Part shown: positions 6 through 24,079 of the stretch, piece by piece
How the letters are laid out: each line of letters opens with the position of its first letter
Numbering within the stretch: the first letter of the stretch is position 1
Assembly: GCA_964459835.1 (NCBI GenBank)
Contig: CAYWPA010000001.1
Location: forward strand, 1,601 to 65,600
Direction of reading: 5' to 3'
Source: an uncultured Methanosarcinales archaeon
GTDB taxonomy: Archaea > Nanobdellota > Nanobdellia > Woesearchaeales > UBA12501
Length of the DNA: 64,000 nt
Notes under the pieces: model-generated
Seen by the model: the letters and a program-made list of their open reading frames with translations, nothing else
Databases searched by the model: none
What the model was told of the DNA's origin: nothing
Translations under genes and position numbers: made by a program

Positions 6-788
6 ATGACTTGGAATATACAGTATGGCACATTATGCGGGCCGTTGAATGAAAGCAAGAGAAGGCTTCACATGTATTTTCTTCCTTCTTTTGCAAATCT
101 GGACGGCATTGCAAGAAAAATAAAATTAACTGGCGCGGATATCGTTGTTCTGAATGAAGTTGACGCTGGCTCTCCAAGAACAGGCTTTAGAAACCAGGCT
201 AAATATGTTGCCGATAAGGCAGGATATTCGTATCATACTTACTTCAGCACAGTCATTGTTCCTAGAATAGTAACAGGCCATTATACTGCTGTGCTGTCAA
301 AAGAACCTGTTCATCTGGAAAAGAAAATGCTCAGGCATAAGAATGTCGGAGTTGTAAGGACAAGTGCAGAAGGAATTGACTATACTGTCATTGCCGTTCA
401 CCTTGACCACCGAGGAAACAAGATAGTCGAAGACCTGCCTTTCCTGGCCGGACTTGTTGGCGAGCAAAATGGAATGTATATGGCTGTTGGAGATTTTAAT
501 TTTTATGATGGGTTGCTGGAAGTATTTCTTAACCACGTCAATAATGGAACAACAAGACTTGTTCACAGCGGAAGCAAAGAACCAACATGGCCTGTCAAGC
601 CAGGGAGAAAACCGGATAATGGTTATCCTTACTACAGGCTCGACCACATCTTAGTTTGCCCTGATCTTGAAATTAAAGAAGAAAGAGTTGTAAAAACAAT
701 TCGCTCTGACCATTATCCAGTTGTTGCTAGATTAGAGCCAAAGTTAGAAGAAAGAGTTGAAGAAATAAAAGCAGTAGGGCCAGCGTAA
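6..788 (+). CDS. endonuclease/exonuclease/phosphatase (EEP) family protein
   Basis: 260-aa ORF; C-terminal motifs RLDHILV and SDHYPVVA typical of the DNase I-like EEP fold. Confidence 0.55.
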   Translation: MTWNIQYGTLCGPLNESKRRLHMYFLPSFANLDGIARKIKLTGADIVVLNEVDAGSPRTGFRNQAKYVADKAGYSYHTYFSTVIVPRIVTGHYTAVLSKEPVHLEKKMLRHKNVGVVRTSAEGIDYTVIAVHLDHRGNKIVEDLPFLAGLVGEQNGMYMAVGDFNFYDGLLEVFLNHVNNGTTRLVHSGSKEPTWPVKPGRKPDNGYPYYRLDHILVCPDLEIKEERVVKTIRSDHYPVVARLEPKLEERVEEIKAVGPA

Positions 789-1106
789 GCCGCCTTCTGT
801 AAGAGCCAAACAATAAAGATTTATTGCGATGCTCTTTCTTGGCATTTAACTTAGCCTCATATGCAGCAATAAATGCTGCTGAGTTGCACAAGCCAGGGCT
901 CACCGTTTCACCCATTCCTTAAGGAACGTCTGCTGGTTATCTCGGCTCTGTCGCCAAAGCCTTCGCAAGCGTCATCCTCCCAAAAGGTGGTATCGTTTCT
1001 GAGTGGTTGCCTTCCTTTTCAGGAACTCCCAATGGAGAGTAGCTAACCATTAATAATGTGGGCGGACTTTCCTCAGTTACCCGAAAGCCAAGCTCTGGCC
1101 CTACTG
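772..1106 (-). ncRNA. rnpB: RNase P RNA
   Basis: Minus strand carries GAGGAAAGTCCGCCC (P4 5' strand), GGGTGAAACGGTG, and ACAGAAGGCGGCTTAC (P4 3' strand, complementary to AAGTCCGCC with one bulge). A terminal P1 helix CAGTAGGGCCAG/CTGGCCCTACTG encloses about 335 nt. Confidence 0.8.
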
Positions 1107-3093: not shown

Positions 3094-4008
3094 TTATATA
3101 AATTTTCTCGGCTCAAGCTTTCTTGGAAGCTCTGTTTCCATCTTTGACTTCAGCATTTCTTTCTTTGCTCTCTTAAGCTGTATAGTGCCGTATTTGTACA
3201 ATCCAAGGCCAAATCCAAACATACATAATGATACAAGGAAAGGCCCTCTGGCCACGTACCATGAAAACGCGAACAAAAGCAAAATGCTTTTGCCGTATAA
3301 TATATCAGTTACTGCCTGTGAAGCCAATAGCCTGATTACAAGATAATATATTAAACTGAACCATCCTACAAAAACAGAGAATTTAGCCATGACATAAAGA
3401 AATGCAGGCTTGTGCCCCAAGGATTTTGAAATATATGATAGCAGCGACCCTACTAATATTCCAACAATGCCTATGTAAAGCATTAATCCCATCAAGTTTA
3501 GCAATGCAACTGCAGGGTCAATCTGCTGCAATGCTAATTGGCTCTGCGCTAGCTGCCCTCTTGCAATGACGTCATTTACAGAGCTTACTGTAAACAGCTG
3601 TATGATTATTATTGCAACAACTCCTATAATTCCTGGAAGCATGATGACTTTCCCAATATCTTTTATAAATTCCGGCATAGTTTTGACTGTCATTACCTTC
3701 ACCAAAACTCCAAAGAAAACCAATGCTAAACCTATAACCAATCCTGTGTTCTGGTACTGCCCTATGAAATTGAAAGGAAACGAGTTTGAAATAGTTCCTA
3801 TCATAAGCTTTAGTTCTTCAAAAGCTCCGCCACCGAACTTATGCCCAAGCAGCTCAGCAGCATCCACCCATCTGCTTTCAAGATTAAAATAAGAAACTCC
3901 GAAAACCAAAAGAACTATTGACAGCCCGGCTTCAAGAAACTCGTCAACTATCTCTGCGCCTATAGTCTCGCTAACGCTTTCGCCTTTCTTATTTTTGAAG
4001 ATTTTCAT
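3094..4008 (-). CDS. polytopic membrane protein, unknown function
   Basis: 304 aa with multiple hydrophobic helices. Confidence 0.45.
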   Translation of the reverse strand: MKIFKNKKGESVSETIGAEIVDEFLEAGLSIVLLVFGVSYFNLESRWVDAAELLGHKFGGGAFEELKLMIGTISNSFPFNFIGQYQNTGLVIGLALVFFGVLVKVMTVKTMPEFIKDIGKVIMLPGIIGVVAIIIIQLFTVSSVNDVIARGQLAQSQLALQQIDPAVALLNLMGLMLYIGIVGILVGSLLSYISKSLGHKPAFLYVMAKFSVFVGWFSLIYYLVIRLLASQAVTDILYGKSILLLFAFSWYVARGPFLVSLCMFGFGLGLYKYGTIQLKRAKKEMLKSKMETELPRKLEPRKFI

Positions 4009-4050: not shown

Positions 4051-5106
4051 CTAGTTGGCGGTCTGCTCGCCACTAGGTTTTTGTATTTCAACATGCTCCT
4101 TTCTGGCATCTATTCCATAAAGTATTCTAAGGATATGCAGCATTCCGTCATCAATTTGGTTTAGAGAGTATGATACTCTTTCTGCTGGAGAAAGGTTAGC
4201 TTCTCTTCCATCAATTATGATTTTTTCAGGCGAGCCGACAAAACCCATATCGTGCTTTATTGTTGCAAGAAGATCTGCTTTTATTTTTTCAATATGATCT
4301 AATGGTACAAATTCTGCAATATCATCGTACTTTGTTTCAAAAAGATGATTCAGATGCTCTGCAACTTTTGGATCTACCAAGTTTGCGTCTTCCATATCAT
4401 CCAAAAGATGTGTGCATATTTTTGAATAGCCGAACAATAGAGTTGTTAAGTCTGCGCTTGTTACAAACTCATTGAAAGCAGAATCATCGATTTTTGTACC
4501 TTTGTTTAAATTAATAAAATATGTTCTAAATGTTTTGGTTGAATCTGCTAAAGAAGCATAGAGTAATTCTCTGGCACGATCTATTTTTTGTATGTTGCTG
4601 ATTTTTGCGTCAATTTCTTCATTGCTGTTGCCAAGGCTGGTCCTTATATCATGGTATAATTTTTCACCTAGGTCTTTTGAAAATTTTGCAATCTTAAATA
4701 CTGCATCTCCATAATTTCCATTCTTTTGTTTGGCGATAGATTCTGCTAATTTAGTTATAAAATCATCCATAAGCTGCCTTTCATTTTTATAAGCTTCAAC
4801 ATGGCTTTCAGCTTTAGCGGCTTTAACAGGATCATCTGTCAAAATAACATGATATGGATTTTTAGATTCTTTGTCAACTATAGTTGCAAGGTTCTCTGGT
4901 TTATTATCTGTTTGCTTCATACCCATGTGTTCTCTTGCTAGCTGTGTCAAAGCCATAACATAAGCATCTCTAGGGATCATCTCATTTACCAAACCAATGT
5001 AAGTATCTTTACATTCAATTGGGATTTCAAACTTCAGAATTTCATCTATTCCAACCCTCCCGCTTCTTTCGTACCATAAGCCAGAACTTTTTGGTTTATC
5101 TGCCAT
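4051..5106 (-). CDS. hypothetical protein
   Basis: ORF 4051..5124; likely start at MADKPK; no recognisable family. Confidence 0.4.
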   Translation of the reverse strand: MADKPKSSGLWYERSGRVGIDEILKFEIPIECKDTYIGLVNEMIPRDAYVMALTQLAREHMGMKQTDNKPENLATIVDKESKNPYHVILTDDPVKAAKAESHVEAYKNERQLMDDFITKLAESIAKQKNGNYGDAVFKIAKFSKDLGEKLYHDIRTSLGNSNEEIDAKISNIQKIDRARELLYASLADSTKTFRTYFINLNKGTKIDDSAFNEFVTSADLTTLLFGYSKICTHLLDDMEDANLVDPKVAEHLNHLFETKYDDIAEFVPLDHIEKIKADLLATIKHDMGFVGSPEKIIIDGREANLSPAERVSYSLNQIDDGMLHILRILYGIDARKEHVEIQKPSGEQTAN

Positions 5107-5287
5107 TTTTCTTAAAATAAGCACTCTCCTTACAGCTTCTTTGTATTACTCCTTTATATATCTTTCGGTTTTTAATCACTCATAAGTAATAACTTTAATT
5201 ATTTTCAATATGGAAAATAATTACCATACCCCCATAGCTACAGCCCAAAAGAATTCAAAAAAATAATAATTAACCTGTATAAAAGCC

Positions 5288-7720
5288 TTACTCATTCACA
5301 ATCTTAGCAACAGCAACAGCCTTGTCCTCTTCTCTCAGCTTCATCAGCCTTACTCCCTGAGTATTCCTTCCAATGCAGGAAATTGTCTGGACAGGTATCC
5401 TTATTGTAATGCCGTCTTTTGACATAAGCATTACATCATCATCTTCTTCAACTGCCTTTACAGAAATTACATTCCCGTTTCTTTCTGAGCAGATGATATT
5501 CTTAACGCCGATGCCTCCTCTCCCTATAAGCCTATATTCTGAAATCTTTGTCCTTTTTCCATAGCCGTTTTCTGTTACTGTAAGGATTGTTTTGTCATCA
5601 TCTGCAATTATTGTACCTACAACTTCATCTCTGTCTTTAAGAGTTATTGCCCTTACTCCCCTTGAAGTTCTTCCTATCTCCCTGGCATCACTTTCATGGA
5701 ACTTTGCGGCCATTCCGTTTGCAGTTGCAATCATGATCTGCTTATTGCCATCAGTCAACAAAGCAGACACTAATTCATCTCCCTCATCAAGATTAACCGC
5801 AATGATTCCTCCCTGCCTTGGCCTTGAGTACTCTTCCAGAGAAGTTTTCTTTATGACTCCATTTTTTGTAACAAGAGCAAGGAAATTATTTTCAAAGCTC
5901 TTTACCGGAACATATGCCTGTATGCGCTCTTCCTTGTCAATCTGTATCATATTTATTATTGGCTTTCCTGCCGCCTGCCTTGACGCTTCTGGAATATGAT
6001 GGACTTTCTGCCAGTAAACTTTTCCTTTGTTTGTGAAGAATAGAACATATGAATGTGTAGATGCTATAAAGACATCTTCAATAAAGTCCTCTTCCCTTGT
6101 TCCTACAGCCTTTATTCCAACCCCTCCCCTTCCCTGCTGCCTGTATGTATTGACAGGAAGCCTTTTTATGTAGCCTTTGTGGGAGATTGTAATAACCATA
6201 TCCTCTTCTTTAATCAAAGCTTCTTCCTTAACTTCTTCATCTTTTGCCTCTATAATTTTTGTTCTCCTTTCATCGCCGTAGTTTGCCTTCAGCTCATGCA
6301 TCTCAGACTTTATCATATTTAAGATTCTCTGCGGCTTTACAAGGATGTCCCTTAGGTCTACTATTATCTCTCCAAGCTGCTTATGCTCATCCCTTATCTT
6401 TGTCTGCTCCATTGATGAAAGCTTCTGCAGCTTCATGTCAAGAATTGATTTTGCCTGTATTTCTGTAAAGGAATAATTGCTCATTAGAGCTTCTTTAGCT
6501 TCTTCAACTGTTTTTGACTTCTTTATCCTGCTGACTACATCATCGATATTGTTTAATGCTATTATCAAACCTTCAAGAATATGCTGCCTTTCCTCTGATT
6601 TTTTCAGGTCAAACTCTGTCCTTTTTCTTACAATATTCTGCCTGTGCAGGACAAAGTTTTTTACAATATCTCTCAAGTTTAATGTCTTTGGCTCATTATT
6701 TACAAGAGCAACAACATTCACTCCAAAAGTTACAGACATTTTTGTGTATGCATATAATTGATTGAGAACAACGTTTGCATTTGCGTCTTTCTTTAGCTCT
6801 ATTACTATTCTCATCCCTTCCCTGTCTGACTCGTCCCTTAAGTCTGAAATGCCCTCTATCTTTTTATCCTTTACATTATTTGCAATTTCTTCCAGAAGGT
6901 CTGATTTGTTCACCTGGTATGGAATTTCTGTTACTATAATCCTTTCCTTCCCCTTGTCTTCCTGGATCTCTGCAACTGCCTTTACCTTTAATTTCCCCCT
7001 TCCTGTTTTATAGGCTTCTTTTATGCCTTCTTTTCCTTCTATGATTCCTGCTGTCGGAAAATCAGGGCCTTTGATGTAATGCATTAATTGCTCTGGTGAG
7101 ATATCTTGGTTTTCAATAAAAGCAATTGTTCCGTCTGCTACTTCGTTTAAGTTATGAGGTGGAATATTTGTTGCCATTCCAACTGCAATTCCTGATGTTC
7201 CGTTAATCAATAAGTTCGGGGCTTTTGCAGGCAGAACCGTAGGCTCTTTCAGGCTGCCATCAAAATTGTCTACCATAGGAACAGTTTCTTTTTCTATATC
7301 CTGCAGCATTTCTTCTGCAAGTTTTGTTAATTTTGCCTCTGTATACCTGTATGCAGCCGCATTGTCCCCGTCAACGCTACCAAAATTTCCTTGTCCTTTA
7401 ACTAAAGGGTAACGTAAAGAAAAGTCCTGAGCCATCCTTACCATTGCATCATAAACAGCAGAATCACCATGTGGATGATATCTTCCCAAAACCATTCCAA
7501 CAACAGTAGCAGACTTCTTAAATGGCTTATTATGCTGCAGCCCCATCTCATGCATTGCAAACAGAATTCTCCTGTGCACTGGCTTTAATCCGTCCCTTAT
7601 ATCCGGCAGTGCTCTTCCCACAATGACTGACATGGCATAGTCTATGTAAGCAGACTTCATCTCATCTTCAATGACTCTTTGCACTACCTTTTCCGGCCTT
7701 TTGACAGCTTCTTCTGACAT
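5288..7720 (-). CDS. gyrA: DNA gyrase subunit A
   Basis: 810 aa; [25 protein letters not shown] active-site region and C-terminal beta-pinwheel repeats. Confidence 0.95.
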
Positions 7721-7842: not shown

Positions 7843-7864
7843 TTATTTTCTATATAGAAAATAA
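7843..7864. promoter_or_regulatory. 22-bp perfect palindrome TTATTTTCTATATAGAAAATAA (copy 1)
   Basis: Lies in the gyrA / kinase divergent intergenic region; an identical copy occurs at 24058..24079. Confidence 0.4.
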
Positions 7865-7952
7865 TTAAAAATATTTCTGTTACGATGACTATATGTAGTT
7901 TTTACCACTAATGAGTAAATTTATATATTTGGGCTGATTAGCTGTAGTTAAA

Positions 7953-9473
7953 ATGGCAATAGATGATACAGTAAATAATGAATATGACAAAAGGTTTAGC
8001 TGTACAGATATAACTAAGTTACAAGAAGCAAATATCCCACCTGAATTAGCAAATGAGTACATCGGATTTAATTGGCTTGGTAGATTTAATTGGTTTAATA
8101 TATCTTATTTTTGCAGTGAAAATATCATTATGTTTATAAAAAATGATATTCCTTATAAATTAGCAAAAAAATATACTTGGAAATTTAGTTCTGCTACTGC
8201 CGCTGCATTAATTTTGGCTGGTATTTCATTAAAAGATGCAAAAAAATATGACAAAAGATTTTCAGATGAAGCTATAAGGTATTTTGTCACAAATAAAATT
8301 ATGCCAAAAGATGTAAATATATTTCATAAACGCTTTAAGAGAGAGGACATATATTATTTAACACGTGTTTCTCCCGGATTGGCAAATAAGTATAATAAAA
8401 TATTTACCGGTCGTGCTATTGGTAAATTCGCTAGAGCAGATATTTCTCCTGAATTAGCAGAAAAATACGATAAAAGATTTGTTGGTAGTTTCGGTCTTGA
8501 GATTGTTATGTTAGCTAAAGGAAAGGTTCCGCCTGAGATAGCAAATAGATATAACCCAAGATATGATGGAAGTTGTATAGCTGTGTTATATAATTTAGGC
8601 ATATGTCCTGATCTTGTTGAAAAACATATAGATCTTGCAGAGCAGATAGTATCTATGACACATACTATTTTAACAGGACAAGGTATAATCGAAAATACTG
8701 AAAATTTCTCATTTATTGGTGTAGGAAAACAAGGTGTAATTATAAGAAATGGTCAAGAAGCTTGGAAATTTTCTAAGGATAAAGAAAATGAAGCTTTATT
8801 ATTATTGAGATTAAAACGAAAATATGTTCATCCAGATAATATAATTAAAGATATGTCAGATAAAAATGATCTTAGTATATGCCATACAGGATATTTGAAA
8901 CTAAATTATGTACCTGGTGAAACTATTGAAACATTAGTTAAAGATCAGCATAATCTTTCCTATGATAAAGCTATAAAATATGGCGCAGGAATAATTAATG
9001 GCTTGATAGAAATGCGCGAAGCGGGAATATTTTACCATAGGGATATCAGGCCCGGGAATATCATTATTGATGAAAAAAGAGATGAGCCGGTTATTGTTGA
9101 TTTGGGCATTGCAACAACAGACAGGCATGCTTTGCCTAAAGATAACAGAAGATTCGGCGGCCCTAATGATTTGGTTTCTGTTGGGCAGATAATGTACTAC
9201 ATGGCAACAGGCAAGCATATTTTTGCACAATCGCAGTCAATGTCATTAACATTGCAGGCAGATGATATCAAGGATTACAGGGAACAGGTTTATGCTGATC
9301 AAGGTGGACAGCTATTGGAAAAGCACCTAAGGCAAGTGGACGAAACAATCCAGGATGAAAGGTTCGGGACGTTAATTAAAGAATGCTTGACAGCAAAAAA
9401 ATACCATTATAGAAAGATGCAAAGAATGTTTGAAGAATATGCAAAATATACCAATAGAACTACATCAAACTGA
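7953..9473 (+). CDS. eukaryotic-like Ser/Thr protein kinase with N-terminal tandem-repeat domain
   Basis: Kinase motifs: Gly loop IGVGKQGVI, catalytic loop HRDIRPGNIII, DLG (DFG-like). N-terminal 220 aa hold about eight approximately 25-aa repeats of consensus [IV][SP]PELA[NE][KR]Y[DN]KRF. Confidence 0.65.
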   Translation: MAIDDTVNNEYDKRFSCTDITKLQEANIPPELANEYIGFNWLGRFNWFNISYFCSENIIMFIKNDIPYKLAKKYTWKFSSATAAALILAGISLKDAKKYDKRFSDEAIRYFVTNKIMPKDVNIFHKRFKREDIYYLTRVSPGLANKYNKIFTGRAIGKFARADISPELAEKYDKRFVGSFGLEIVMLAKGKVPPEIANRYNPRYDGSCIAVLYNLGICPDLVEKHIDLAEQIVSMTHTILTGQGIIENTENFSFIGVGKQGVIIRNGQEAWKFSKDKENEALLLLRLKRKYVHPDNIIKDMSDKNDLSICHTGYLKLNYVPGETIETLVKDQHNLSYDKAIKYGAGIINGLIEMREAGIFYHRDIRPGNIIIDEKRDEPVIVDLGIATTDRHALPKDNRRFGGPNDLVSVGQIMYYMATGKHIFAQSQSMSLTLQADDIKDYREQVYADQGGQLLEKHLRQVDETIQDERFGTLIKECLTAKKYHYRKMQRMFEEYAKYTNRTTSN

Positions 9474-10413
9474 TATCGCTTTGCTTATTATCAATGTTCT
9501 TGATAACTGAATATTCTATAAAATTGTTTATAACCTCCAAGAATAAGTTCGTCTCTGGGAGTACCTGTAATTCTTTTACAGTAAAATTCTCATCATCAAT
9601 TTTTTTCTTAAGAGCATATCTTTTTTCAATAAGTTCGCCATACTTGATTTTCCCATCTAATAATTGGAACTGTTCATAGAAAAAGATGAAGATCTCTTCT
9701 AAATATTTCTTTACCTTTGCAGTGCAGCCATAAGCATCAATTTTTTCGCTTAAATGCCTTAGTTTATCTACTAAAGTATCCAGTAATATATAAAAAGAAT
9801 ATGCTTCATTCTTAAGCTCTTCACTTTTATCTGAGGCATGTAGCTCCCTTAAAAAATAATGTATAAACTTTATTATATTGTCATGATGGTTGTAAATTGT
9901 GCCATGGAATTCTTCATAAGTATTATCTATTGCATTTAATAACTCATCTGTTGTCTCTTTTAATAGAAAATATATCCTTTTTTCTATCTGGCCTAAATCA
10001 GGATTTTCCTCCGTGACAAAACATTTTATCTCTGTTTTTGTTGAGGATTGGGATATTATTTCAGCACCTATAAATCGTCCGGCTAATCGCTTGATTTCAG
10101 TTTTGATATTAAGCCACTTTCTTTCTTTATGATTATAAATTTCATGTTTGGAATAAGTCAATGTGATTTTGTTGAAACCTGTTTTATACAATACGCTCAA
10201 CTTTCTTGTAAGCTCCATAAGCGAGTAATTGTCTATATTCAATGAAGCCTCTTTTGTAGCCTTGGCTGTTGGTTTTACAGAAAAGATTACACTGTTTTTA
10301 TCATAACCAATATCCAGCTCATCCCCTTTCTTAACATTATTCTTCCTAGCCCACTTAGTAGGCAAACTAACTGTAAGCGTGTTCTGGCCGACTAGATTGA
10401 CTTTTCTCTTCAT
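9460..10413 (-). CDS. AbrB/SpoVT swapped-hairpin DNA-binding protein with helical C-terminal domain (archaeal PhoU-like architecture)
   Basis: N-terminus VGQNTLTVSLPTKWARKNNVKKGDELDI resembles an AbrB/MazE/SpoVT domain; the C-terminal part is helical. Confidence 0.45.
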   Translation of the reverse strand: MKRKVNLVGQNTLTVSLPTKWARKNNVKKGDELDIGYDKNSVIFSVKPTAKATKEASLNIDNYSLMELTRKLSVLYKTGFNKITLTYSKHEIYNHKERKWLNIKTEIKRLAGRFIGAEIISQSSTKTEIKCFVTEENPDLGQIEKRIYFLLKETTDELLNAIDNTYEEFHGTIYNHHDNIIKFIHYFLRELHASDKSEELKNEAYSFYILLDTLVDKLRHLSEKIDAYGCTAKVKKYLEEIFIFFYEQFQLLDGKIKYGELIEKRYALKKKIDDENFTVKELQVLPETNLFLEVINNFIEYSVIKNIDNKQSDISLM

Positions 10414-10531: not shown

Positions 10532-10987
10532 ATGTTATCAGAAAAAGAACGAAAATTGGTTGCAGCCCTGCGAAAAGAGAGTGGAGTAAGTATTGCAAAG
10601 CTTGCAAAGAAATTCGGAATCCCAAAGTCAACTTTGTTTGATTTGAGAAAGAGATTGGAGCAAGACAAAATGATACAGAACAAAAGCATGGTTTCGTTTG
10701 AAAAGATTGGATTCCCTGTGAGAATGTTTGTTGCCATTAAAACATCCCCAAATGACAGGAGCAGCCTGACAAGGTATCTGTCAGAAAAACCGAATGTCAA
10801 CAGCCTGTATATCGTTAACTCAGGCTTTGACATTCACTTTGAGGCATTGTTTAGAAACCAAAAGGAAAATATGGAATTCATGGAAGATATAGAAAAAATG
10901 TTTAAGATTTACCAAGCGCACGAATTTAATGTTATTGAAATAGTAAAGCATGAAAAGTTTTTGATAGAAGAAAGCCATTTTGAATAA
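10532..10987 (+). CDS. Lrp/AsnC family transcriptional regulator
   Basis: 151 aa; N-terminal HTH (SIAKLAKKFGIPKSTLFDLRKRL) and C-terminal RAM-like domain. Confidence 0.7.
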   Translation: MLSEKERKLVAALRKESGVSIAKLAKKFGIPKSTLFDLRKRLEQDKMIQNKSMVSFEKIGFPVRMFVAIKTSPNDRSSLTRYLSEKPNVNSLYIVNSGFDIHFEALFRNQKENMEFMEDIEKMFKIYQAHEFNVIEIVKHEKFLIEESHFE

Positions 10988-24057: not shown

Positions 24058-24079
24058 TTATTTTCTATATAGAAAATAA
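24058..24079. promoter_or_regulatory. 22-bp perfect palindrome TTATTTTCTATATAGAAAATAA (copy 2)
   Basis: Identical to 7843..7864; lies about 80 bp upstream of the beta-propeller gene start. Confidence 0.4.

What the first reader, a model, noticed from the sequence alone, without database searches (positions are those of the whole stretch)
7953..9473. Eukaryotic-like protein kinase fused to a novel 25-aa tandem repeat array
The C-terminal half has a Gly-rich loop, HRDIRPGN catalytic loop and DLG motif. The N-terminal 220 aa consist of about eight repeats of [IV][SP]PELA[NE][KR]Y[DN]KRF with no resemblance to TPR, PQQ or other known kinase-associated repeats. It is divergently placed from gyrA, with a 22-bp palindrome in the shared intergenic region.
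Basis: seen in the sequence. Interest (0 to 1): 0.6.

Follow-up and report, generated by a model that had tools for sequence, protein, structure and literature searches.

The report
Archaeal kinase with undescribed helical repeats
This gene from a small symbiotic-type (DPANN) archaeon encodes an apparently active Ser/Thr protein kinase. Its front half is an array of about nine 25-residue helical repeats of a kind not found in the domain or structure databases searched, and the same repeat also occurs in exported proteins of these archaea.

Summary
ORF 7953..9473 (+) encodes a 506-aa protein. Residues 246-506 are a Hanks-type kinase: Pfam Pkinase scores 48.1 bits against a cut-off of 31.7, and K272, E280, D364, N369 and D383 are conserved across 52 homologues. 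Residues 3-241 are nine units of a ~25-aa repeat, consensus ISPEEANKYDKRFSGEDIAELVKAG. An HMM built only from other proteins scores this region 98 bits, against -0.3±1 for shuffles, so it is not low complexity.

AlphaFold (pLDDT 90) predicts helix-loop-helix units stacked as a helical repeat array. The repeat matches no Pfam or NCBIfam model and no PDB or BFVD fold. A repeat profile finds 393 protein clusters, named ones all Woesearchaeota. About half of the best 150 are repeat+kinase proteins without signal peptides. The rest include peptidase C13+thioredoxin+repeat proteins and lipoproteins.

Best reading: a cytoplasmic kinase whose variable repeat array is a binding or sensor module. This is a new variant of a known kind, and the ligand is unknown.

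The 22-bp palindrome is real but not kinase-specific. It recurs three times in the window and over 120 times in metagenomes, upstream of orc1/cdc6 and gyrA.

The parts
7953..9473 (+). CDS for the 506-aa repeat+kinase protein (the stop codon is included)
   Evidence: ORF list. A 100% identical protein, P0001, exists in the public collection.
7959..8033 (+). Repeat unit 1 (aa 3-27), IDDTVNNEYDKRFSCTDITKLQEAN. It lacks the first short helix. This N-terminal form is conserved in homologues.
8034..8147 (+). Repeat unit 2 (aa 28-65), 38 aa. It carries a 13-aa insertion (GFNWLGRFNWFN) that has low pLDDT and comes from a small 18-nt DNA duplication.
   Evidence: (D9)
8148..8441 (+). Repeat units 3-6 (aa 66-90, 91-115, 116-138, 139-163)
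   Evidence: Each unit is a short helix, a loop and a 7-9-residue helix in the model.
8442..8600 (+). Repeat units 7-8 (aa 164-191, 192-216). These are the best-preserved units: ISPELAEKYDKRF... and VPPEIANRYNPRY...
8601..8675 (+). Degenerate ninth unit plus a long capping/linker helix (aa 217-241) that leads into the kinase N-lobe
   Evidence: Helices 219-224 and 226-241 in both models
8688..9470 (+). Hanks-type protein kinase domain (aa 246-506)
   Evidence: Pfam PF00069 above its cut-off, invariant catalytic residues and Foldseek matches to PknB and Aurora
8718..8735 (+). Gly-rich loop GVGKQG (aa 256-261)
   Evidence: G258 is at least 90% conserved.
8760..8804 (+). Beta3 lysine K272 (AWKFS) and alphaC glutamate E280
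   Evidence: K272 is invariant and E280 at least 90% conserved in 52 sequences
9036..9059 (+). Catalytic loop HRDIRPGN (aa 362-369)
   Evidence: H362, D364 and N369 are invariant. The loop aligns to HRDIKPQN of S. aureus PknB.
9099..9173 (+). DLG motif (D383) and an unusually short activation segment, DLGIATTDRHALPKDNRRFGGPNDL. It holds candidate phospho-acceptors T388/T389 and has no APE motif.
   Evidence: D383 is invariant; A387, T388, N398, R400, G402 and N405 are at least 90% conserved. There is no helix between aa 381 and 406 in the model.
7843..7864 (.). Perfect 22-bp palindrome TTATTTTCTATATAGAAAATAA in the gyrA/kinase spacer. It is a shared cis-element and is not specific to the kinase.
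7920..7927 (+). TATA-box-like TTTATATA, centred about 29 nt upstream of the ATG. This is the likely core promoter of the kinase gene (inferred).
   Evidence: Read from the sequence. Archaeal TATA boxes lie about 26 nt upstream of the transcription start (general knowledge).
9460..10413 (-). Convergent neighbour encoding a SpoVT/AbrB-domain protein of 317 aa. Its 3' end overlaps the kinase gene by 14 nt, and it is a conserved neighbour of the kinase array in relatives.
   Evidence: Pfam MazE_antitoxin/AbrB fold. tblastn synteny in L003, L004, L005 and L006 and in L081.
10532..10987 (+). HTH (Lrp/AsnC-like) regulator that follows the AbrB-type gene. It is also syntenic in relatives.

Best explanation
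The gene encodes a soluble, cytoplasmic, catalytically competent Hanks-type Ser/Thr protein kinase of a family found almost only in DPANN (Woesearchaeota/Nanoarchaeota-type) archaea. Its N-terminal half is a stack of about nine 25-residue helix-loop-helix units, consensus ISPEEANKYDKRFSGEDIAELVKAG.

The conserved P3, A6, Y9, R12, F13, I18 and L21 fit a framework role, and the variable positions 5, 8, 11, 16, 19, 20 and 22 could form a binding surface. This split is inferred from conservation alone.

The array most likely acts as the recognition module. It would bind a protein or other ligand, either to recruit substrates or to control the kinase through the long helix (aa 226-241) that joins it to the N-lobe. 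The kinase would then switch on by phosphorylation of T388/T389 in its short activation loop. That loop lacks the APE/P+1 substrate-docking segment, which fits substrate selection being handed to the repeat array.

Shown here: the domain identities, the conservation, the confidently predicted folds, the family distribution and the absence of export signals. Inferred: the binding role of the repeats, the activation mechanism and the substrates.
For: Kinase identity:
- Pfam Pkinase matches above its gathering score.
- K272, H362, D364, N369, D383, D406 and G411 are invariant in 52 homologues. G258, E280, R363, T388 and R443 are at least 90% conserved.
- The predicted fold matches PknB, Aurora A and CaMKII at E about 5e-8, TM (target) 0.54-0.60.

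Repeat reality and fold:
- An independent HMM scores the region 98.4 bits, against -0.3±1.0 for shuffles.
- AlphaFold gives mean pLDDT 90.3 and pTM 0.81 for the full length, and 90.2 for the repeat region alone. Each unit has a short helix and a 7-9-residue helix.

Family-level architecture:
- 52 homologues of 311-862 aa were found, and the named ones are DPANN, Woesearchaeota or Nanoarchaeota.
- Unit counts range from 0 to 24.
- Only 7 of the 80 loci kept from GTDB species representatives carry true relatives.

Modular reuse points to a general binding scaffold:
- The same repeat is joined to peptidase C13 + thioredoxin.
- It also makes up small proteins that start with a signal peptide or lipobox.
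- None of 100 kinase-bearing members has an N-terminal hydrophobic segment, against 26 of 70 non-kinase members.

Short activation segment: D383 to D406 spans 23 residues with no helix. PKA has 36 residues between D184 and D220 (textbook numbering).
Against: No ligand, substrate or partner is identified. No phosphatase or FHA gene was seen next to the kinase in the window or in nine related loci.

The window copy has fairly degenerate units, at 10-29 bits each, while non-seed homologues reach 33-38 bits. Its array could therefore be partly decayed.

The assignment of framework versus surface positions rests on conservation and secondary structure only. I had no access to model coordinates.

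Confidence: 0.6

Rival explanations
1. The protein is an immune or conflict sensor kinase. The variable repeat array would recognise a viral or foreign protein, and the kinase would then trigger a protective or abortive response, as proposed for single-gene defence kinases.
For: PADLOC models of the defence kinases PD-T4-6 and MAD6 match at E=3e-18 and 9e-16. Repeat number changes quickly between homologues. Relatives carry tandem arrays of 2-4 paralogous kinases. The same repeat is joined to caspase-like C13 peptidases. Variable sensors attached to different effectors are typical of conflict systems (general knowledge).
Against: The PADLOC matches cover only about 80-120 residues of the catalytic core, which any Hanks kinase shares. 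The NCBIfam defence models score far below their cut-offs: MAD6 31.8 against 460, PglW 25.9 against 990. The neighbours are housekeeping genes in conserved order (gyrA, AbrB-type, Lrp/AsnC, GHMP kinase), not a defence island. Many C13-peptidase versions carry signal peptides.
Confidence: 0.12
2. The repeat array binds DNA, in the manner of helix-hairpin-helix or TALE-like arrays. The protein would then be a DNA-activated kinase acting on chromosome proteins, which would explain its position beside gyrA.
For: The junction between units (..LVKAG-ISPEEA..) resembles the GIGxxxA hairpin of HhH motifs; this comparison is from memory and was not tested. The weak Foldseek hits include the TALE-like protein BurrH (E=3.9, TMq 0.30). 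The window's array is basic, with pI 9.2. The gene sits next to gyrA here and near gyrB in L082. A DNA-activated Hanks kinase, YabT, is known (PMC6333020, listed).
Against: No HhH family appears in Pfam scans of 21 repeat regions, even at E<=10. There is no Topo V, RuvA or ComEA match by sequence profile or by fold. The net charge of the arrays varies from pI 4.7 to 9.5 across the family, which does not suit a shared polyanion ligand. The gyrase adjacency is absent from 7 of the 9 related loci examined.
Confidence: 0.08
3. The protein is a host-interaction factor. The repeat would be a recognition module of episymbiotic DPANN cells, used on surface lipoproteins and exported enzymes, and the kinase versions would be delivered into or act on the host.
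For: The repeat is almost confined to DPANN-labelled proteins. 26 of 70 non-kinase members carry an N-terminal hydrophobic or lipobox leader. Copy number is highly variable. There are weak similarities to secreted effector kinases: LegK1 at E=0.0014 and YopO at E=9e-4.
Against: None of 100 kinase-bearing members has an export signal. The effector-kinase similarities cover only the catalytic core. No secretion-system genes lie nearby. No host is known for this genome.
Confidence: 0.12
4. The gene is an artefact or a dead gene: the repeats are compositional low complexity in AT-rich DNA and the kinase is a pseudokinase.
For: The window is AT-rich, at 38% GC. Tandem Repeats Finder does not report the 75-nt period. 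The Pfam match covers only profile positions 72-247 of 263.
Against: The shuffle control gives 98.4 bits against a maximum of 4.6. The repeat profile retrieves 393 protein clusters at E<=0.001. All catalytic residues are invariant or nearly so across homologues of 29-53% identity. Both models have pLDDT of about 90.
Confidence: 0.02

Closest known systems
Bacterial Hanks-type Ser/Thr kinases with repeat sensor domains (PknB/Stk1 with PASTA, PknD with a beta-propeller, PknG with TPR)
   Same: The catalytic domain is of the same kind. The best sequence and fold matches are S. aureus and M. tuberculosis PknB. The logic is the same: a kinase fused to a repeat module that senses or binds something.
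   Different: The domain order is reversed, with the repeats N-terminal. There is no transmembrane segment, so the whole protein is cytoplasmic. The repeat belongs to no curated family. The activation segment is about 13 residues shorter and lacks APE. The PknB_PASTA NCBIfam model scores 43.9 against a cut-off of 450.
Eukaryotic kinases with N-terminal ankyrin repeats (ILK, TNNI3K) and archaeal ePKs with TPR (Sulfolobus ArnC)
   Same: These also combine a helical repeat array with a Hanks-type kinase in one soluble polypeptide, and their repeats serve as protein-binding platforms (general knowledge; archaeal ePK examples are listed).
   Different: The unit here is 25 aa with a short helix, an 8-residue loop and a 9-residue helix, against 33 aa for ANK and 34 aa for TPR. 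There is no Pfam ANK or TPR signal. The family is confined to DPANN archaea.
Short helical repeats of 24-27 aa (leucine-rich repeat variant LRV, PBS-lyase HEAT-like)
   Same: Unit length is similar, and the predicted build of two short helices per unit stacked into an array is also similar.
   Different: There is no sequence-profile match to LRV, HEAT_PBS or HEAT_2 in any of 21 repeat regions. There is no Foldseek match at E<=0.001, and the best hit is a designed alpha/alpha toroid at E=0.87. The conserved Y-x-x-R-F loop has no counterpart that I know of.
Single-gene anti-phage kinases (PD-T4-6; MAD6; BREX PglW)
   Same: The kinase cores align at E=3e-18 to 4e-7. These are also kinases joined to variable accessory regions.
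   Different: Only the catalytic core matches. The NCBIfam cut-offs are missed by more than tenfold. No partner genes of BREX or MADS are nearby.

Membership tests
Hanks-type / eukaryotic-like protein kinase (Pfam PF00069) | The profile match reaches Pfam's gathering score | tested here: met
   48.1 bits against 31.7, E=1.4e-12, aa 312-482
Hanks-type / eukaryotic-like protein kinase (Pfam PF00069) | Gly-rich loop, beta3 Lys and alphaC Glu (ATP-binding N-lobe) | tested here: met
   GVGKQG at 256-261. K272 is invariant, and E280 and G258 are at least 90% conserved in 52 sequences. The third Gly is Ser in most relatives.
Hanks-type / eukaryotic-like protein kinase (Pfam PF00069) | Catalytic loop HRDxxxxN and the Mg-binding DFG aspartate | tested here: met
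   The loop is H362-R363-D364...N369, and D383 is in DLG. H362, D364, N369 and D383 are invariant. An Arg (R366) replaces the usual catalytic-loop Lys.
Hanks-type / eukaryotic-like protein kinase (Pfam PF00069) | Activation segment ending in APE, with a P+1 loop and alphaEF | tested here: not met
   There are only 23 residues from D383 to D406, no APE motif, and no helix between aa 381 and 406. This is an atypical feature, but the protein still passes the profile threshold.
Hanks-type / eukaryotic-like protein kinase (Pfam PF00069) | Bilobal kinase fold with the C-lobe helices (subdomain IX D..G, subdomain XI Arg) | tested here: met
   D406 and G411 are invariant and R443 at least 90% conserved. 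Foldseek gives E=4.8e-8 to PknB 5u94, and TM (target) up to 0.60 to CaMKII and Aurora A.
Hanks-type / eukaryotic-like protein kinase (Pfam PF00069) | Phosphotransfer activity on Ser/Thr (or Tyr) | not testable with these tools
   This needs a biochemical assay.
PASTA kinase PknB/Stk1 (NCBIfam NF033483) | Full-length equivalog score, a transmembrane helix and extracellular PASTA repeats | tested here: not met
   43.9 bits against a cut-off of 450, covering only aa 311-388. There is no hydrophobic segment and no PASTA hit.
Known repeat families linked to kinases (TPR, HEAT, ANK, LRR, WD40, PQQ, Sel1, pentapeptide, HhH, LRV) | Profile match of the repeat region to the family model | tested here: not met
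   The window's aa 1-245 give no Pfam hit at E<=10. None of these families appears in 21 repeat regions, and no family recurs in more than one member. NCBIfam gives none. A profile search of PDB sequences gives none.
Known repeat folds in solved structures | Significant structural match of the repeat domain model | tested here: inconclusive
Anti-phage kinases (PD-T4-6, MAD6, PglW) | Full-length model match and the system's partner genes nearby | tested here: not met
   The PADLOC hits cover only the catalytic core, aa 296-434. NCBIfam MAD6 scores 31.8 against 460 and PglW 25.9 against 990. The neighbours are gyrA, an AbrB-type gene, an HTH gene and a GHMP kinase.
New 'YxxRF' 25-aa repeat family (proposed here) | Tandem units matching hxPExAxxYxxRFxGxDIxxLxxxx with a period of about 25 | tested here: met
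   7 units reach the domain threshold and 9 can be read by eye. The profile of three units scores the window protein 167 bits, E=6e-45 in a 1.84-billion-protein library.

The most novel reading that the evidence does not exclude
The 25-residue unit defines an undescribed helical repeat family that is almost confined to Woesearchaeota-type DPANN archaea. These genome-reduced symbionts would use it as a fast-evolving recognition module. It sits on cytoplasmic kinases (often in tandem paralogue arrays), on exported caspase-like peptidase+thioredoxin enzymes and on surface lipoproteins. It could therefore be a lineage-specific system for partner, host or non-self recognition, and not merely a generic scaffold.
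Probability: 0.25. Interest if true: 0.7.

Novelty: new variant of a known kind. Interest (0 to 1): 0.45.

Why it matters
DPANN archaea have very small genomes and mostly unknown biology. Even so, relatives of this organism keep two to four tandem copies of this kinase, and the same uncurated repeat turns up in at least 393 protein clusters.

Defining the repeat would give annotation pipelines a new domain model. It would also name a large block of 'hypothetical' DPANN proteins. A kinase whose substrate-docking segment is missing and whose specificity may lie in a repeat array offers a handle on signalling in these organisms. The occurrence of the repeat both inside and outside the cell makes it a candidate for studies of symbiont-host contact.

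Separately, the exactly conserved 22-bp palindrome upstream of orc1/cdc6 and gyrA is a testable candidate for an Orc1/Cdc6-type binding site in an uncultured lineage.

Tried and rejected
- Word-indexed homologue searches with repeat-only profiles gave nothing useful. A2 found no hit and A4 found 4 hits. The exhaustive HMMER search with A2 was what worked.
Its archaeal origin rests on homologue labels and on an archaeal RNase P RNA.
- A first N-terminal alignment (A3) was discarded because MAFFT stretched the query across the kinase columns. A4, built from trimmed homologues, replaced it.
- Literature searches for a DPANN or Woesearchaeota kinase with repeats found nothing relevant.
- The HhH/DNA-binding idea was considered and ranked low, because there are no HhH profile or fold hits and the charge varies.
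- A replication origin in the window was considered because of the palindrome. GC skew simply follows gene orientation, and no orc1/cdc6 gene is present.
- No other kinase or repeat-bearing ORF exists in the window.
- The palindrome does not occur in the nine related kinase loci.
Full report
**What is there.** The window is archaeal. It holds an archaeal RNase P RNA at 775-1103 and is 38% GC. ORF 7953..9473 (+) encodes 506 aa. It lies divergent from gyrA (5288..7720, -; Pfam DNA_topoisoIV E=1.5e-166) across a 232-bp spacer. Its 3' end overlaps by 14 nt a convergent gene for a SpoVT/AbrB-domain protein (9460..10413). The N-terminus MAIDDTVNNEYDKRF matches the conserved N-terminus of homologues, so the start codon is sound. 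A TATA-like TTTATATA at 7920-7927 sits about 29 nt upstream of the ATG. This suits an archaeal core promoter with little or no leader, which is an inference.

**The kinase half.** Pfam Pkinase matches aa 312-482 at E=1.4e-12, 48.1 bits against a gathering score of 31.7. The best solved relatives by sequence are S. aureus PknB/Stk1 (4eqm, 9ymt; E=1.6e-7), where HRDIRPGNIIID aligns to HRDIKPQNILID.

In an alignment of 52 homologues, K272 (beta3 Lys), H362, D364, N369, D383 (DLG), D406 and G411 are invariant. G258, E280 (alphaC), R363, T388 and R443 are at least 90% conserved. All residues needed for phosphotransfer are therefore kept, and a pseudokinase is unlikely.

The AlphaFold model of the full protein (52-sequence alignment) has mean pLDDT 90.3 and pTM 0.81. 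Foldseek places it among PknB, Aurora A and CaMKII at E about 5e-8 and TM (target) 0.54-0.60.

Two features are atypical. An Arg (R366) replaces the catalytic-loop Lys. The activation segment is short: 23 residues from D383 to D406, with no APE motif and no helix. It does contain a conserved A-T-T (T388/T389) that could be the phospho-switch, which is an inference.

Matches to curated kinase families are core-only and far below cut-off. These include PknB-PASTA, MAD6, PglW, LegK1 and Bud32, and PADLOC PD-T4-6.

**The repeat half.** Units start at aa 3, 28, 66, 91, 116, 139, 164, 192 and 217. The DNA still shows 60-90% identical direct repeats at matching spacing. Tandem Repeats Finder does not report the 75-nt period, so the duplications are old.

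A 25-position HMM seeded only from P0003, P0004 and P0006 scores the window's first 245 aa at 98.4 bits. Five hundred shuffles average -0.3 ± 1.0, with a maximum of 4.6.

The conserved positions are P3 76%, A6 82%, Y9 85%, R12 70%, F13 87%, I18 80% and L21 75%. Positions 5, 8, 11, 16, 19, 20 and 22 are highly variable.

In both AlphaFold models each unit is a 4-6-residue helix (PExA), an approximately 8-residue loop carrying Y-x-x-R-F, and a 7-9-residue helix. A long helix (226-241) then leads into the kinase. The repeat region modelled alone has pLDDT 90.2. Unit 2 carries a low-confidence 13-aa insertion that stems from a small 18-nt duplication.

**Is the repeat known?** No Pfam family matches the window's repeat region at E<=10. 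Two repeat-rich homologues give only sub-threshold, unrelated hits. Scanning 21 repeat regions one by one gives no family that recurs in more than one member. NCBIfam has nothing for the repeat parts. A three-unit profile finds only a designed protein in PDB sequences, at E=0.82.

**Distribution.** The full protein retrieves 52 homologues (29-53% identity, 311-862 aa). All names given by sources are DPANN, Woesearchaeota or Nanoarchaeota.

Among GTDB species representatives, only seven of the 80 loci kept are true relatives. Beyond them the matches drop to generic bacterial kinases at E about 1e-10. Three of the seven MAGs carry a 'Methanosarcinales' label, which I could not resolve.

The three-unit profile, searched exhaustively against 1.84 billion cluster representatives, finds 393 proteins at E<=0.001 and 107 at E<=1e-30. 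About half of the best 150 carry the family's kinase domain, usually C-terminal to the repeats and occasionally internal or duplicated.

The rest have no kinase and fall into these groups:
- A recurrent architecture of peptidase C13 (legumain/caspase-like) + thioredoxin + repeats. One of these is named 'caspase family protein [Candidatus Woesearchaeota archaeon]'.
- Many 150-400-aa proteins that begin with a signal peptide or lipobox.
- A few giant multidomain proteins.
- Two high-GC proteins, one of them on a high-GC contig of unidentified origin.

None of 100 kinase-bearing members has an N-terminal hydrophobic segment, against 26 of 70 non-kinase members, 12 of which have a lipobox-like Cys. 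The repeat therefore works on both sides of the membrane. This favours a general binding scaffold over a dedicated ligand. The arrays' pI ranges from 4.7 to 9.5, which argues against a shared polyanion such as DNA.

**Context.** The window has only this one kinase or repeat gene. Relatives carry 2-4 tandem paralogues, some with other N-terminal regions. Downstream, the order kinase(s), then AbrB-type gene (-), then Lrp/AsnC-type HTH (+) recurs in L003, L004, L005, L006 and L081 as well as here. The upstream neighbour varies: gyrA here, ribosomal protein S6e in L081, and an HTH gene with gyrB beyond it in L082. The conserved AbrB-type neighbour is a candidate partner or substrate, but this is inference from gene order alone. 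No PP2C or FHA gene was seen.

**The palindrome.** The 22-bp perfect palindrome is real (7843-7864). It is not private to this gene pair, however. It occurs again, identically, at 24058-24079, and with two mismatches at 5199-5220. These two perfect copies are the only perfect palindromes of 16 bp or more in the 64 kb, and none is expected by chance. About 30 bp are conserved while the flanks are unrelated.

In the 80 loci fetched, the element has these positions:
- 78-170 nt upstream of orc1/cdc6 in 8 loci, whose Orc1 proteins are only 31-83% identical to one another
- upstream of gyrA in two further genomes, 60-66% identical to the window's GyrA
- between divergent genes for a metallo-beta-lactamase-fold protein (possibly RNase Z) and tRNA-intron endonuclease in 5 loci

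It was never next to another kinase. Its half-site ATTTTC fits the ANTTTC motif bound by the Orc1/Cdc6 paralogue Orc1-2 in Sulfolobales (PMC6061795). That is a six-base resemblance in a distant lineage, so it is a lead only. The element most likely belongs to gyrA or to a wider regulon, and is not a kinase-specific operator.

**Verdict.** The protein is a new, lineage-specific variant of a familiar design, a Hanks-type kinase with a repeat sensor, built with a repeat type that is uncurated as far as these databases show. Mechanism beyond 'active kinase plus binding array' is inferred. I rate interest as moderate (0.45).

Noticed in passing
window 5199-5220, 7843-7864, 24058-24079; metagenome loci L084-L163: A palindrome of about 30 bp with the exact 22-bp core TTATTTTCWATATRGAAAATAA recurs three times in the window and more than 120 times in AT-rich metagenome contigs. 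It lies upstream of orc1/cdc6 (8 of 80 loci, with Orc1 proteins only 31-83% identical) and of gyrA (3 genomes), and between divergent genes for a metallo-beta-lactamase-fold protein (possibly RNase Z) and tRNA-intron endonuclease (5 loci). Its half-site ATTTTC fits the ANTTTC motif bound by Orc1-2 in Sulfolobales (PMC6061795). It is a candidate Orc1/Cdc6 box or a conserved operator.
   Followed up: partly
L081 2304-10631; L002 2953-9573; L003 5644-9764; L082 3469-8199: Relatives carry tandem arrays of 2-4 paralogous kinases of this family at the same locus. Some have the 25-aa repeats and others have different, unannotated N-terminal regions. The window has a single copy.
   Followed up: partly
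proteins P0060, P0065, P0069, P0109, P0116, P0124, P0145, P0149 (not in the window): There is a recurrent architecture of signal peptide + peptidase C13 (caspase/legumain-like) + thioredoxin + the same 25-aa repeats. One member is named as a Woesearchaeota 'caspase family protein'. Its function is unknown.
   Followed up: partly
window 9460-10413 (-) and 10532-10987 (+): A 317-aa SpoVT/AbrB-domain protein and an Lrp/AsnC-like HTH regulator are conserved neighbours of the kinase array in five related loci. The AbrB-type gene overlaps the kinase gene's 3' end by 14 nt.
   Followed up: partly
window 775-1103 (-): There is an archaeal RNase P RNA here (Rfam RF00373, 144 bits against a gathering score of 84). 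It confirms an archaeal source.
   Followed up: no
window 8065-8100: An 18-nt direct duplication (GATTTAATTGG...) inside repeat unit 2 creates the GFNWLGRFNWFN insertion. This is the only low-confidence stretch of the repeat model.
   Followed up: no
L001, L003, L006 (GTDB genome contigs): Three MAGs that carry clear family members, two of them (L003, L006) also with the same AbrB-type synteny, are labelled 'uncultured Methanosarcinales archaeon'. All other named relatives are Woesearchaeota, Nanoarchaeota or DPANN. The labels may be wrong.
   Followed up: no
window 4051-5124 (-) and 3094-4008 (-): Two ORFs of about 300-360 aa downstream of gyrA have no Pfam match. The first is preceded by the near-copy of the palindrome, 75 nt upstream.
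   Followed up: no
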